Source: a virus. Taken from it: a stretch of DNA of 10,316 nt. Within the stretch, counting starts at the first letter, position 1, and each line of letters begins with the position of its first letter. The notes under the pieces were generated by a model. That model had not been told where the DNA came from. It ran no database searches and worked only from the letters and a program-made list of their open reading frames with translations. Positions 3,365-10,316 of the stretch are shown here, piece by piece. The stretch is taken from the UHGV virus genome UHGV-0214301, one strand, 5' to 3'. The translations under genes were made by a program, and so were the position numbers.

Positions 3365-3384
3365 ACATAGATAATGTTATTTTT

Positions 3385-3414
3385 GCTCTGAAGCGGTTTT
3401 TATTACTTCAGAGC
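3385..3414. terminator. Perfect 9-bp inverted repeat hairpin just after the acyltransferase stop; possible terminator or transcript-stabilising element
   Basis: GCTCTGAAG-cggtttttatta-CTTCAGAGC, 20 bp past the stop at 3362-3364. A T-run precedes the stem and another lies in the loop, but no U-tract follows on either strand, so it is not a canonical intrinsic terminator. Confidence 0.25.
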
Positions 3415-3466
3415 AATACGGATTCCGACAGGTCGGGGTTAAAAAACTGCGCATAACATTATCTGA

Positions 3467-3700
3467 GGGTGCCATTCTGGTTCTCTGGAAGCAACCAGAG
3501 CTAAAGATCGTATTGGTGGCAGACGTCCGAAACTCACCGCGAGTGAGTGGGAGCAGGCCGGACGGTTGCTGGCTGCGGGGGAGTCACGTCAACGTGTGGC
3601 GCTGATTTTTGATATTGGCCTGTCACCGCTCTATAAAAAATTCCCCTCATCAGCGACAAAGAATAAATTGTGTCATCCCTTAGCCAACCGGGACAAATAG
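3467..3700 (+). pseudogene. 3'-terminal remnant of a serine DNA invertase gene (Gin/Hin/Pin/Cin family), C-terminal HTH domain only
   Basis: The frame translates to ...LEATRAKDRIGGRRPKLTASEWEQAGRLLAAGESRQRVALIFDIGLSPLYKKFP..., matching the conserved C-terminal DNA-binding end of Gin/Pin-type invertases (GRIGGR-P-KLT...EWEQAGRLLA-G..R..VA-I.....S.LYK.FP). The frame is closed by TGA at 3464-3466 and there is no catalytic N-terminal domain or start codon upstream. Confidence 0.7.
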
Positions 3701-5537: not shown

Positions 5538-5813
5538 ATGAACAAAGAAAATGTGATTACCCTGGACAATCCGGTCAAGCGTGGTGAGCAGGTCATCGAA
5601 CAGGTCACGCTGATGAAACCCAGTGCCGGGACGCTGCGCGGTGTCAGTCTGGCTGCGGTCGCAAACTCCGAAGTTGATGCACTAATTAAGGTGTTGCCGC
5701 GCATGACGGCACCGATGCTGACCGAGCAGGAAGTTGCCGCACTGGAACTGCCTGACCTTGTGGCGCTGGCCGGTAAGGTGGTCGGTTTTTTGTCGCCGAA
5801 CTCGGTGCAGTAA
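5538..5813 (+). CDS. E: Tail assembly chaperone E (zero-frame product)
   Basis: 91-aa ORF between the tube and tape-measure genes, the length of P2 gpE. It contains the slippery heptamer near its 3' end. Confidence 0.88.
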   Translation: MNKENVITLDNPVKRGEQVIEQVTLMKPSAGTLRGVSLAAVANSEVDALIKVLPRMTAPMLTEQEVAALELPDLVALAGKVVGFLSPNSVQ

Positions 5814-8419: not shown

Positions 8420-8899
8420 ATGATGCTCGCGTTAGGTATGTTTGTTTTTATGCGCCAGACGCTGCCACACCAGACCATGCAGCGTGAATCAGATTATCGC
8501 TGGCCGTCAAATTCCCGTATCGGTAAACGGGATGCCTACCAGTTTCTCGGCGTTGGTGAGGAAAACATGACGCTTGCCGGTGTGCTTTATCCCGAACTGA
8601 CCGGCGGCAAGCTGACGATGACCACGCTCAGACTGATGGCAGAGGAAGGCCGGGCGTGGCCGTTGCTGGATGGCACAGGCATGATTTACGGCATGTATGT
8701 CATCAGCAGGGTGAGTGAAACAGGGAGTATTTTCTTTGCAGACGGCACACCCCGGAAAATTGATTTTACGCTGTCACTCACCCGCGTGGATGAATCACTG
8801 GCCGCGCTTTATGGCGATATCGGTAAACAGGCAGAATCGCTCATCGGTAAGGCTGGCAGTATGGCGACTAAATTCACGGGGATGACGGGGGCGGAATAA
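8420..8899 (+). CDS. U: Tail protein U (tail tube terminator/baseplate-proximal protein)
   Basis: 159-aa ORF, the length of P2 gpU, with a strong AAGGAGG Shine-Dalgarno at 8404-8410. The stop overlaps the D start as TAATG. Confidence 0.88.
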   Translation: MMLALGMFVFMRQTLPHQTMQRESDYRWPSNSRIGKRDAYQFLGVGEENMTLAGVLYPELTGGKLTMTTLRLMAEEGRAWPLLDGTGMIYGMYVISRVSETGSIFFADGTPRKIDFTLSLTRVDESLAALYGDIGKQAESLIGKAGSMATKFTGMTGAE

Positions 8900-10062
8900 T
8901 GCTGGATGCGCTGACATTTGATGCAGGCAGTACGCTGACGCCGGATTACATGCTGATGCTCGACAGCAGGGATATTACCGGCAATATCAGCGACCGTCTG
9001 ATGAGCATGACCCTGACGGATAACCGGGGCTTTGAGGCTGACCAGCTTGATATTGAACTGAACGATGCCGACGGGCAGGTCGGGCTGCCGGTTCGTGGCG
9101 CTGTCCTGACGGTGTATATCGGCTGGAAAGGTTTTGCCCTGGTATGCAAAGGGAAATTTACCGTTGATGAGGTTGAACACCGGGGCGCGCCGGATGTGGT
9201 TACCATCCGCGCCCGGAGTGCAGATTTTCGCGGGACGCTCAATTCCCGCCGGGAAGGCTCCTGGCATGACACCACGCTCGGTGCGATTGTTGAGGTGATA
9301 GCCTCCCGTAACAGGCTGGAAGCCAGTGTCGCGCCGTCACTGGCCGGAATTAAAATCCCGCACATCGACCAGTCGCAGGAGTCCGATGCGAAATTCCTGA
9401 CCCGTCTTGCTGAACGCAACGGCGGTGAGGTGTCGGTAAAAATGGGAAAATTGTTGTTTCTCAAAGCGGGGCAGGGGGTGACGGCCAGTGGTAAAAAAAT
9501 CCCGCAGGTCACCATAACCCGCAGCGACGGCGACCGCCATCATTTTGCGATTGCTGACCGTGGAGCCTATACCGGCGTAACGGCAAAGTGGTTACACACC
9601 AAAGACCCGAAGCCACAAAAGCAGAAGGTAAAACTGAAACGCAAAAAGAAAGAGAAACACCTGCGCGCACTGGAGCACCCGAAAGCGAAACCGGTCACGC
9701 AGAAGAAAGCGCCAAAAGTACCGGAAGCGCGCGAAGGTGAATACATGGCAGGTGAGGCTGACAACGTTTTTGCCCTGACCACGGTATATGCCACGAAAGC
9801 GCAGGCCATGCGCGCCGCTCAGGCGAAGTGGGATAAGCTGCAACGGGGCGTTGCGGAGTTCTCCATCAGTCTGGCTACTGGTCGGGCAGATATTTACACG
9901 GAAACGCCGGTCAGAGTATCAGGCTTTAAGCGCGTCATAGACGAGCAGGACTGGACAATCACTAAGGTGACACATTTTCTGAATAATAGCGGCTTCACGA
10001 CGTCCCTGGAGCTTGAGGTCAGGCTTTCTGATGTGGAGTACGAAACAGAAGATGATGAGTGA
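8899..10062 (+). CDS. D: Tail protein D (late gene D, tail/baseplate hub family)
   Basis: 387-aa ORF, the length of P2 gpD, translationally coupled to U and last gene before ogr. Contains a lysine-rich basic segment (KDPKPQKQKVKLKRKKKEKHLRALEHPKAKPVTQKKAPK). Confidence 0.88.
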   Translation: MLDALTFDAGSTLTPDYMLMLDSRDITGNISDRLMSMTLTDNRGFEADQLDIELNDADGQVGLPVRGAVLTVYIGWKGFALVCKGKFTVDEVEHRGAPDVVTIRARSADFRGTLNSRREGSWHDTTLGAIVEVIASRNRLEASVAPSLAGIKIPHIDQSQESDAKFLTRLAERNGGEVSVKMGKLLFLKAGQGVTASGKKIPQVTITRSDGDRHHFAIADRGAYTGVTAKWLHTKDPKPQKQKVKLKRKKKEKHLRALEHPKAKPVTQKKAPKVPEAREGEYMAGEADNVFALTTVYATKAQAMRAAQAKWDKLQRGVAEFSISLATGRADIYTETPVRVSGFKRVIDEQDWTITKVTHFLNNSGFTTSLELEVRLSDVEYETEDDE

Positions 10063-10080
10063 TGTTTTTATTTTATCTGT

Positions 10081-10109
10081 TTGTTTTATAAGGATAAATT
10101 AACTAAAAT
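10081..10109 (+). promoter_or_regulatory. Putative sigma-70 promoter of ogr
   Basis: TTGTTT (10081-10086), a 17-bp spacer, then TAAAAT (10104-10109). The predicted transcript start is about 27 nt upstream of the ATG at 10144, which has an AGGTG Shine-Dalgarno 7 nt upstream. Confidence 0.4.
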
Positions 10110-10143
10110 GGCACCATCAACAAAACCGGAAGAGGTGCTCGCG

Positions 10144-10316
10144 ATGTTTCATTGTCCTTTATGCCAGCATGCCGCACATGCGCGTACAAGTCGCTATATC
10201 ACTGACACGACAAAAGAGCGTTATCACCAGTGTCAGAACGTGAATTGCAGCGCCACGTTCATCACTTATGAGTCGGTACAGCGATACATCGTGAAGCCGG
10301 GAGAAGTCCACGCCGT
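10144..10316 (+). CDS. ogr: Late transcription activator Ogr (Cys4 zinc finger), 3' end beyond the window
   Basis: Translation MFHCPLCQHAAHARTSRYITDTTKERYHQCQNVNCSATFITYESVQRYIVKPGEVHA... matches P2 Ogr as I remember it, including the CPLC...CQNVNC zinc-binding cysteines. An in-frame ATG at 10108 would add 12 residues but lies inside the predicted -10 element, so 10144 is preferred. Confidence 0.9.
   Translation, partial: MFHCPLCQHAAHARTSRYITDTTKERYHQCQNVNCSATFITYESVQRYIVKPGEVHA

What the first reader, a model, noticed from the sequence alone, without database searches (positions are those of the whole stretch)
10081..10160. ogr start-codon ambiguity resolved in favour of the internal ATG by promoter placement
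An in-frame ATG at 10108 would extend Ogr by 12 residues (MAPSTKPEEVLA), but it falls inside a good -10 hexamer (TAAAAT, 17 bp after TTGTTT). The ATG at 10144 has an AGGTG Shine-Dalgarno and gives the canonical MFHCPLCQ N-terminus. Automated annotation could easily over-extend this gene.
Basis: partly seen in the sequence, partly recalled or inferred. Interest (0 to 1): 0.2.

Follow-up and report, generated by a model that had tools for sequence, protein, structure and literature searches.

The report
P2 ogr start codon and promoter
The upstream in-frame ATG sits in the gene's own promoter and is not the start of the phage P2 late-gene activator Ogr, which begins at the second ATG as the curated P2 record already shows, so this is only a known annotation pitfall.

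Summary
TTGTTT is at 10081-86, followed by a 17-nt spacer and TAAAAT at 10104-09. An in-frame ATG lies at 10108, AGGTG at 10133-37, and ATG at 10144 (MFHCPLCQ...).

The window is a P2-type prophage tail/D/ogr region. It is 97.6% identical to phage P2 and 100% identical to E. coli E308 over 10000-10316.

The curated P2 record AF063097 marks the same -35, the same -10 and the same start codon. RefSeq ogrK also starts at 10144.

Comparative data agree. In 22 P2-type D-ogr spacers from more than 10 genera, TTG, the 17-nt spacing, TAAAAT, a CAT 6-8 nt downstream, AGGTG and the ATG are conserved. The base that completes the upstream ATG is G in only 5 of 22. The leader length varies between 32, 33 and 34 nt. 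The frame is open in only 2 of 22.

Among 84 close relatives, four have ATA instead of ATG. Seven of the eight variable sites in the "extension" change the residue or the start codon.

Two caveats apply. The promoter is only an 8/12 match, which is chance level by sequence alone. Late read-through transcripts do contain ATG 10108.

Verdict: interpretation supported; already known; low interest.

The parts
8899..10062 (+). Gene D (tail protein, 387 aa), last gene of the late F operon. Its stop TGA at 10060-10062 is in the same frame as ogr.
   Evidence: ORF list. Annotated as gpD / late control D family protein in matching records.
10081..10086 (+). -35 element TTGTTT of the ogr promoter (3/6 to consensus; the TTG is the conserved part).
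   Evidence: Sequence. AF063097 minus_35_signal maps to 10081-10083. Invariant in 84 close relatives. TTG is 95-100% conserved in 22 spacers from more than 10 genera, always with a 17-nt spacer.
10090..10094 (+). AAGGA in the promoter spacer. This SD-like element lies about 13 nt before ATG 10108 and probably helps mislead gene callers.
   Evidence: Duplex energy is -6.0 kcal/mol with the 16S tail. It is polymorphic among close relatives (10091-10094 vary).
10104..10109 (+). -10 element TAAAAT (5/6 to consensus).
   Evidence: Sequence. AF063097 minus_10_signal maps to 10104-10110. Mean column conservation is 0.98 in alignment A3. The only variant in close relatives is at the already non-consensus third base.
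10108..10110 (+). In-frame ATG that is not the start codon. It overlaps the end of the -10 hexamer.
   Evidence: G10110 is A in 4 of 84 close relatives. It is G in only 5 of 22 cross-genus spacers, and only 2 of 22 are in frame and open.
10115..10117 (+). Conserved CAT located 6-8 nt after the -10. The inferred transcription start is near A10116, which would give a 5' UTR of about 28 nt.
   Evidence: Conservation is C 0.91, A 0.82, T 0.95 in A3, while the flanks are 0.41-0.55. The start site itself is inferred, not measured here.
10132..10137 (+). Shine-Dalgarno GAGGTG, 6 nt before the true start.
   Evidence: AGGTG is 100% conserved in A3. Duplex energy is -7.1 kcal/mol.
10144..10316 (+). ogr coding sequence, codons 1-57 of 72 (cut by the window end). 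It encodes the Ogr/Delta zinc-finger activator of late transcription.
   Evidence: Translation MFHCPLCQ.... Pfam PF04606 scores 76.9 bits on residues 3-49, and NF007241 covers 1-72 of the full-length homologue. CDS starts in AF063097 and RefSeq map here.

Best explanation
Window 10063-10143 is the D-ogr intergenic region of a P2-type prophage. It holds the gene's own sigma-70-type promoter (P_ogr), with -35 TTGTTT at 10081-86, a 17-nt spacer and -10 TAAAAT at 10104-09.

Transcription is inferred to start near A10116. That gives a leader of about 28 nt whose GAGGTG (10132-37) directs ribosomes to ATG 10144. The product is the 72-residue zinc-finger activator Ogr (MFHCPLCQ...).

The ATG at 10108 is a by-product of the -10 hexamer being followed by a G. 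It lies upstream of the promoter's own transcript and does not start the protein. The 84-aa and longer versions in databases are gene-caller over-extensions.

Shown here: the sequence features, their conservation, the non-conservation of the upstream ATG, frame and peptide, and the database annotations. Inferred: the exact start site. Taken from the curated P2 record and from my own knowledge of Birkeland, Lindqvist & Christie 1991, which I could not read: that the promoter is experimentally established.
For: (1) AF063097 annotates the -35, the -10 and the ogr start at exactly these positions. RefSeq ogrK in E308 and in K-12 BW2952 starts at the equivalent of 10144.

(2) blastn to 186 B, EtG, Klebsiella, Salmonella and Yersinia homologues begins exactly at query base 145, which is window 10144.

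(3) NF007241 (72 positions) aligns to residues 13-84 of the extended protein. Pfam Ogr_Delta starts at residue 3 of the short form.

(4) In 80 loci from different species, 79 have ATG at the position aligned to Ogr M1, and the products are 72-73 aa.

(5) Alignment A3 covers 22 spacers from more than 10 genera. All 22 have a 17-nt spacer. Mean conservation is 0.91 for the -35, 0.98 for the -10, 1.00 for the SD and 1.00 for the ATG. The base after TAAAAT is G in 5 of 22. The leader is 32, 33 or 34 nt long, so the indels are not multiples of three. Several sequences have in-frame stops, and only 2 of 22 are open and in frame.

(6) In 84 close relatives, the -35 is invariant and the -10 has one neutral variant. 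Positions 10110-10121 have 7 of 12 sites variable. ATG is changed to ATA in 4 loci. The 12 extension codons carry 6 replacement sites, 1 start loss and 1 synonymous site.

(7) The SD before 10144 is stronger and optimally spaced.

(8) Genomic SELEX with RpoD holoenzyme alone gave a peak in the ogrK-yegZ spacer of K-12 (PMC3946193). The ogr homologue of prophage BTP5 was expressed in all conditions in lysogens (PMC7067206).

(9) Phage 186 B has the same layout, with pB -10 ending 31 nt before its ATG.
Against: The hexamer pair is only 8/12. The standard scan misses it, and it is matched by chance in about 50% of shuffles.

Late F-operon read-through mRNA contains ATG 10108 together with an AAGGA 13 nt upstream. 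Occasional initiation there in Escherichia-type phages is therefore not formally excluded.

The 80 IMG/VR loci were selected for identical Ogr protein. The zero replacement changes in the CDS are therefore by construction and cannot serve as a fair dN/dS contrast. The N-terminal pattern was one of two patterns used to fetch the 80 genome loci, which is a partial ascertainment bias.
Confidence: 0.92

Rival explanations
1. ATG 10108 is the true and only start, and Ogr is an 84-residue protein, as many database entries state.
For: The frame is open. An AAGGA lies upstream at -6.0 kcal/mol. The exact 84-aa sequence is recorded on at least 1000 contigs and in some viral RefSeq records.
Against: The ATG is absent in 17 of 22 cross-genus spacers and in 4 close relatives. 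The leader length varies by 1-2 nt. Relatives have in-frame stops. The peptide is not conserved. Family models and homologue similarity start at 10144. The curated P2 record and RefSeq use 10144. The SD spacing of 13 nt is poor.
Confidence: 0.01
2. There are two starts. ATG 10144 is used on P_ogr transcripts. In addition, late in infection a minor 84-aa isoform is made from ATG 10108 on F-operon read-through mRNA in Escherichia-type P2 phages.
For: The P2 record says the terminator after ogr serves both the ogr transcript and the F operon. There is no terminator-like site between D and ogr. An AAGGA lies 13 nt upstream. The frame is open in most Escherichia-type sequences.
Against: There is no selective signature on the 12 codons: 6 replacement sites, 1 start loss and 1 synonymous site. 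The ATG is lost in some otherwise intact relatives. The extension is absent in other genera. The spacing is suboptimal. Even if the isoform is made, it is dispensable.
Confidence: 0.04
3. The hexamer pair is a chance match. ogr has no promoter of its own here and is expressed only by read-through from the late operon. The start codon would still be 10144.
For: The match is only 8/12. The scan does not call it, and shuffles give such a pair half the time.
Against: The TTG, the fixed 17-nt spacing and TAAAAT are strictly conserved across more than 10 genera, while the spacer and leader diverge. The P2 record annotates it. An RpoD-holoenzyme SELEX peak falls in the orthologous K-12 spacer, where the D gene is a truncated remnant. 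An activator of late transcription cannot depend solely on a late promoter that it must itself activate; this last point is logic and established P2 biology from my own knowledge.
Confidence: 0.03

Closest known systems
Bacteriophage P2 ogr gene and its promoter P_ogr (GenBank AF063097 / NC_001895; UniProt VOGR_BPP2)
   Same: Window 10081-10160 differs from P2 at a single spacer base: 10088 is A here and G in P2. The -35, -10, SD, start codon and the first 57 residues are the same. The position after gene D is the same.
   Different: There is no functional difference. The window is a prophage variant, 100% identical to E. coli E308 over 10000-10316, and it is cut before the end of ogr.
E. coli K-12 cryptic P2 remnant gene ogrK
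   Same: It has the same gene, the same spacer and the same 72-aa product. RefSeq uses the equivalent of ATG 10144.
   Different: In K-12 gene D is a truncated pseudogene, so ogrK cannot be read through from an intact late operon.
Phage 186 gene B and promoter pB (U32222)
   Same: It encodes a homologous 72-aa activator (63% identity). It lies directly after D and has its own sigma-70 promoter, whose -10 ends 31 nt before the ATG. It also has an accidental in-frame upstream ATG overlapping the promoter.
   Different: The promoter sequence is unrelated (TTCACA-17-TATCAT). It carries CI repressor sites. The upstream peptide is unrelated, and the close relative EtG has a stop there.
Satellite phage P4 Delta / Ogr_Delta family (Pfam PF04606)
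   Same: It shares the CX2C-X22-CX4C zinc-finger domain, which begins at residue 3 of the protein.
   Different: From my own knowledge, Delta is a tandem two-domain protein in a different genomic context. It was not examined here.

Membership tests
Ogr/Delta zinc-finger late transcription activators (Pfam PF04606; NCBIfam NF007241) | Significant full-length match to the family models | tested here: met
   PF04606 scores 76.9 bits (cut-off 26.3) on residues 3-49. NF007241 scores 177.6 bits (cut-off 116) on residues 1-72 of the full-length protein from P2/E308-type loci. The window itself encodes residues 1-57, identical to P2 Ogr.
Ogr/Delta zinc-finger late transcription activators (Pfam PF04606; NCBIfam NF007241) | Four cysteines spaced CX2C-X22-CX4C, starting at residue 4 | tested here: met
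   MFHCPLCQ...YHQCQNVNCS has C4, C7, C30 and C35, which are invariant in the five-genus alignment A2.
Ogr/Delta zinc-finger late transcription activators (Pfam PF04606; NCBIfam NF007241) | Protein starts at M-[FM]-H-C-P with no N-terminal extension | tested here: met
   79 of 80 loci have ATG at this position, and the products are 72-73 aa. This is partly ascertained by the search pattern. The extension is not conserved.
Ogr/Delta zinc-finger late transcription activators (Pfam PF04606; NCBIfam NF007241) | Activates P2-type late promoters through the RNA polymerase alpha subunit | not testable with these tools
   This is a functional property. It is described for P2 Ogr in PMC3152322.
P2-type ogr promoter (sigma-70, own promoter between D and ogr) | -35 and -10 hexamers with 17-nt spacing at the position annotated in phage P2 | tested here: met
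   The hexamers are identical to AF063097, and the annotated signals map to 10081-83 and 10104-10.
P2-type ogr promoter (sigma-70, own promoter between D and ogr) | Match to the sigma-70 consensus better than chance | tested here: not met
   The match is 8/12 and is not called by the scan. About 50% of shuffles have an equal match. This weakens the argument from sequence alone, but it does not affect identity with the P2 promoter.
P2-type ogr promoter (sigma-70, own promoter between D and ogr) | Phylogenetic footprint: hexamers and spacing conserved while the surroundings diverge | tested here: met
   All 22 sequences have a 17-nt spacer. Mean conservation is 0.98 for the -10, 1.00 for the G and second T of the -35 TTG (0.95 for its first T; 0.91 for the whole hexamer), 0.74 for the spacer and 0.41-0.55 for the leader.
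P2-type ogr promoter (sigma-70, own promoter between D and ogr) | Mapped transcription start downstream of the -10 | not testable with these tools
   Birkeland et al. 1991 (PMC209047) is not held. Only indirect support is available: the RpoD holoenzyme SELEX peak in the K-12 spacer and the conserved CAT at 10115-17.

The most novel reading that the evidence does not exclude
In Escherichia-type P2 phages, the late F-operon read-through transcript contains ATG 10108 and an AAGGA 13 nt upstream. It might be translated into a minor 84-residue Ogr isoform that appears only late in infection. That would give a temporal isoform switch driven by promoter choice.
Probability: 0.03. Interest if true: 0.25.

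Novelty: already known. Interest (0 to 1): 0.05.

Why it matters
The main value is for annotation hygiene. The same 72-residue regulator is deposited as 84-, 93-, 99- and 103-residue proteins on thousands of contigs. One form 'starts' at the TTG of the -35 hexamer and another at the ATG overlapping the -10. The case is a clean teaching example of a principle: conservation of promoter geometry, set against non-conservation of frame, can settle a start codon without experiments. No new biology follows from it.

Tried and rejected
(1) The consensus promoter/terminator scan of 9800-10316 returned nothing. The promoter falls below the tool's 9/12 threshold, so the scan can neither confirm nor deny it.

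(2) I tried to read the primary literature: Birkeland 1991 (PMC209047), Christie 1986 (PMC323488) and Christie 2002 (PMC135442). None is held. Full-text searches for the ogr promoter or start site gave only secondary mentions.

(3) GTG 10135 as a start was rejected. It is part of the SD itself and has only -3.5 kcal/mol upstream.

(4) TTG 10081 as a start (the 93-aa database form) was rejected. It is the -35 TTG and has no SD (+0.3 kcal/mol).

(5) A LexA box overlapping the -35 was considered, because ogrK is listed under 'potential SOS box'. CTG-N10-AAG at 10077-10092 is imperfect, its C and G are not conserved in A3, and ogrK was not induced in an SOS time course. It was set aside.

(6) The A/U-rich hairpin 10042-10087 was considered as a D-ogr terminator. 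It is weak (-10.6 kcal/mol, z -2.27) and was not called as a terminator.

(7) A search for a solved structure of an Ogr-family protein, to fix the N-terminus, found none. The only match was a marginal one to the NrdR zinc ribbon.

(8) A dN/dS contrast between the extension and the CDS was abandoned as a formal test, because the 80 IMG/VR loci were pre-selected for identical protein.

Full report
OBSERVATION. The sequence is as described. TTGTTT lies at 10081-10086, followed by a 17-nt spacer and TAAAAT at 10104-10109. ATG at 10108-10110 shares its A and T with the end of that hexamer. AGGTG is at 10133-10137, six bases before ATG 10144. The two ATGs are 36 nt apart and in frame. The extension reads MAPSTKPEEVLA, and the downstream protein begins MFHCPLCQ. 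In fact the frame is open for 27 codons, right back to the TGA stop of the preceding gene at 10060-62. It also contains TTG 10081 and GTG 10135.

WHAT THE REGION IS. The window is the tail-gene end of a P2-type prophage. ORFs for the sheath, tube, E, tape-measure, U and D proteins all lie on the + strand. Gene D ends at 10062 and ogr begins at 10144. Positions 9900-10316 are 97.6% identical to phage P2. Positions 10000-10316 are 100% identical to the E. coli E308 chromosome, and similar sequence is present in 2071 of 5426 complete E. coli genomes. Within 10081-10160 the only difference from P2 is one spacer base, at 10088.

COMPARISON WITH CURATED ANNOTATION. The P2 reference record AF063097 carries a minus_35_signal, a minus_10_signal and the ogr CDS. 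These map to window 10081-10083, 10104-10110 and 10144 respectively. The record also carries a terminator after ogr, noted as serving 'ogr transcript and F operon'. PGAP/RefSeq calls ogrK at the equivalent of 10144 in both E308 and K-12 BW2952.

IS THE PROMOTER MORE THAN CHANCE? By sequence alone it is not. The -35 matches at 3 of 6 positions and the -10 at 5 of 6, so the pair is 8/12. That is below the scan's threshold, and the scan finds nothing. Half of the shuffles of the 81-nt intergenic region contain an equally good pair.

Conservation is what makes it convincing. I fetched 80 Ogr-family loci, one per species genome. I aligned the 22 with a P2-type spacer, from Escherichia, Kosakonia, Scandinavium, Kluyvera, Buttiauxella, Enterobacter, Huaxiibacter, Lelliottia, Citrobacter and Erwinia, plus phage ENT4. 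All 22 have exactly 17 nt between the hexamers. The TTG of the -35 is 95-100% conserved. TAAAAT averages 0.98. AGGTG and the ATG are 100% conserved. The spacer (0.74) and the leader (0.41-0.55) drift.

A CAT located 6-8 nt after the -10 is also conserved (0.91, 0.82, 0.95). This is the usual position and context of a start site, so I infer a start near A10116. This was not measured.

There is external support as well. Genomic SELEX with RpoD holoenzyme alone gave a 'constitutive promoter' peak in the ogrK-yegZ spacer of K-12 (PMC3946193). [quoted passage not shown] Phage 186 has the same layout with an unrelated promoter sequence, pB, whose -10 ends 31 nt before the B start codon.

IS THE UPSTREAM ATG A START CODON? 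Five lines of evidence say no.

(i) Distant-mode blastn to 186 B and a dozen other homologues begins at query base 145, which is exactly window 10144.

(ii) The 72-position NCBIfam equivalog aligns to residues 13-84 of the extended protein. Pfam Ogr_Delta begins at residue 3 of the short one.

(iii) In the 80 species-level loci, 79 have ATG at the position aligned to Ogr M1 and encode 72-73 residues. One of the two search patterns was the N-terminal motif, so this count is partly ascertained.

(iv) In alignment A3 the base after TAAAAT is G in only 5 of 22 sequences, T in 13 and A in 4. The distance from the -10 to the start codon is 32, 33 or 34 nt, so the indels are not multiples of three. 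Three of the four other sequences that keep the ATG have a stop codon (TAA or TAG) seven codons later, and one of these is also out of frame. Only 2 of 22 are in frame and open, and their peptides are unrelated: MAPSTKPEEVLA versus MLALNHKGEVIK.

(v) Among 84 close relatives (80 IMG/VR loci encoding an identical 72-aa Ogr, plus four reference loci), the -35 is invariant. The -10 varies only at its already non-consensus third base. Positions 10110-10121 have 7 of 12 sites variable. ATG is ATA in four loci: L012, L020, L042 and L074. The eight variable sites in the 12 codons comprise six replacement sites, one start loss and one synonymous site. That is the pattern of non-coding DNA.

In addition, the SD before 10144 is stronger and ideally spaced (-7.1 kcal/mol, 6 nt). 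The UAAGGA before 10108 is weaker and about 13 nt away (-6.0 kcal/mol).

Lying inside the -10 hexamer removes ATG 10108 only from transcripts that start at this promoter. The P2 record states that the F operon shares the terminator after ogr. No terminator-like element lies on the + strand between D and ogr. Late read-through mRNA therefore does include ATG 10108 and its AAGGA. The comparative data show that any product from it is dispensable and unselected. Occasional initiation there in Escherichia-type phages cannot be formally excluded without ribosome or protein data. I rate this at about 3-4%.

THE ANNOTATION PREDICTION. This is confirmed. LR595870 annotates an 84-aa 'Prophage P2 OGR protein' starting at the equivalent of 10108. 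The exact 84-aa sequence is recorded on at least 1000 contigs, the counting cap. It sits in a 90%-identity cluster of 218 distinct over-extended sequences that also includes forms of 93, 99 and 103 aa. The 93-aa form starts at TTG 10081, the -35 itself. The 99-aa form is named 'Ogr' in UniRef (Q858U4_9CAUD). Viral RefSeq names are attached to the 84- and 93-aa forms (pro483, P22H4). The 72-aa form (UniProt VOGR_BPP2) is likewise on at least 1000 contigs. An in-frame upstream ATG before the first stop occurs in 17 of 80 family loci, including phage 186 itself. This kind of ambiguity is an ordinary chance feature of AT-rich promoters.

COMPARISON WITH THE KNOWN, AND VERDICT. This is phage P2's ogr gene with its own promoter, in a prophage variant. 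All sequence-level membership features are met. The one that is not met is a better-than-chance consensus match, which concerns only the strength of a sequence-only argument. The matter is already settled in the curated record and, by my recollection, in Birkeland et al. 1991, which I could not open. Novelty: already known. Interest: low, apart from its use as an annotation caution.

Noticed in passing
window 10081-10083 and 10063-10143: Public databases hold 93-aa, 99-aa and 103-aa 'Ogr' proteins as well as the 84-aa one. The 93-aa form starts at the TTG that is the -35 element. The whole D-ogr spacer is open in the ogr frame, which is also the frame of gene D.
   Followed up: partly
window 10042-10087: An A/U-rich hairpin (AAACAGAAGAUGAU...AUUUUAUCUGUUUGUUU) spans the D stop codon and the -35 element. 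Its energy is -10.6 kcal/mol, with z = -2.27 and 3 of 200 shuffles as stable. It is not a classical terminator, and its function, if any, is unknown.
   Followed up: partly
window 10074-10090: Bases just upstream of the -35 (T10074, A10075, T10078) and in the spacer (A10090) are invariant across 22 spacers from more than 10 genera. This goes beyond what the hexamers require. It could be an UP-like element or a regulator site.
   Followed up: no
window 10077-10092: K-12 ogrK is listed among genes with a 'potential SOS box' (PMC6590174). The only LexA-like element here is CTG-N10-AAG overlapping the -35. Its C and G are not conserved in relatives, and ogrK was not induced in an SOS time course (PMC11002266).
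   Followed up: partly
L005 359-361 (phage 186): Phage 186 gene B also has an in-frame ATG, 14 codons upstream, lying between the pB hexamers and giving an unrelated peptide (MIIIYSRIENKGWV). The close relative EtG has a stop codon in that stretch. This is the same annotation trap, arisen independently.
   Followed up: yes
window 10122-10143: The second half of the leader, including the SD, is almost invariant among 84 close relatives (1 variable site in 22). The first half, 10110-10121, has 7 variable sites in 12. Only AGGTG is conserved across genera.
   Followed up: no
window 5765-5793: A stem-loop followed by TTTTTTG lies near the end of the 91-aa E ORF (5538-5813) and was picked up as 'terminator-like'. 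From my own knowledge this is where the programmed -1 frameshift producing E+E' occurs in the P2 FETUD operon.
   Followed up: no
window 3370-3660: Between the tail-fibre assembly ORF and the sheath gene there is a perfect hairpin (GCTCTGAAG...CTTCAGAGC, about 3385-3416). It is followed by about 200 nt that read like the C-terminal helix-turn-helix end of a Hin/Gin-type DNA invertase. Related phages annotate a 'DNA invertase' or 'recombinase family protein' in the matched region. It is probably an invertase remnant.
   Followed up: no
L099 (Salmonella enterica s1) and L143 (Citrobacter youngae): Two Ogr homologues are preceded by GC-rich, coding-like sequence instead of the AT-rich promoter spacer. 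L143 also lacks the ATG. They may be rearranged or decayed prophage remnants.
   Followed up: no
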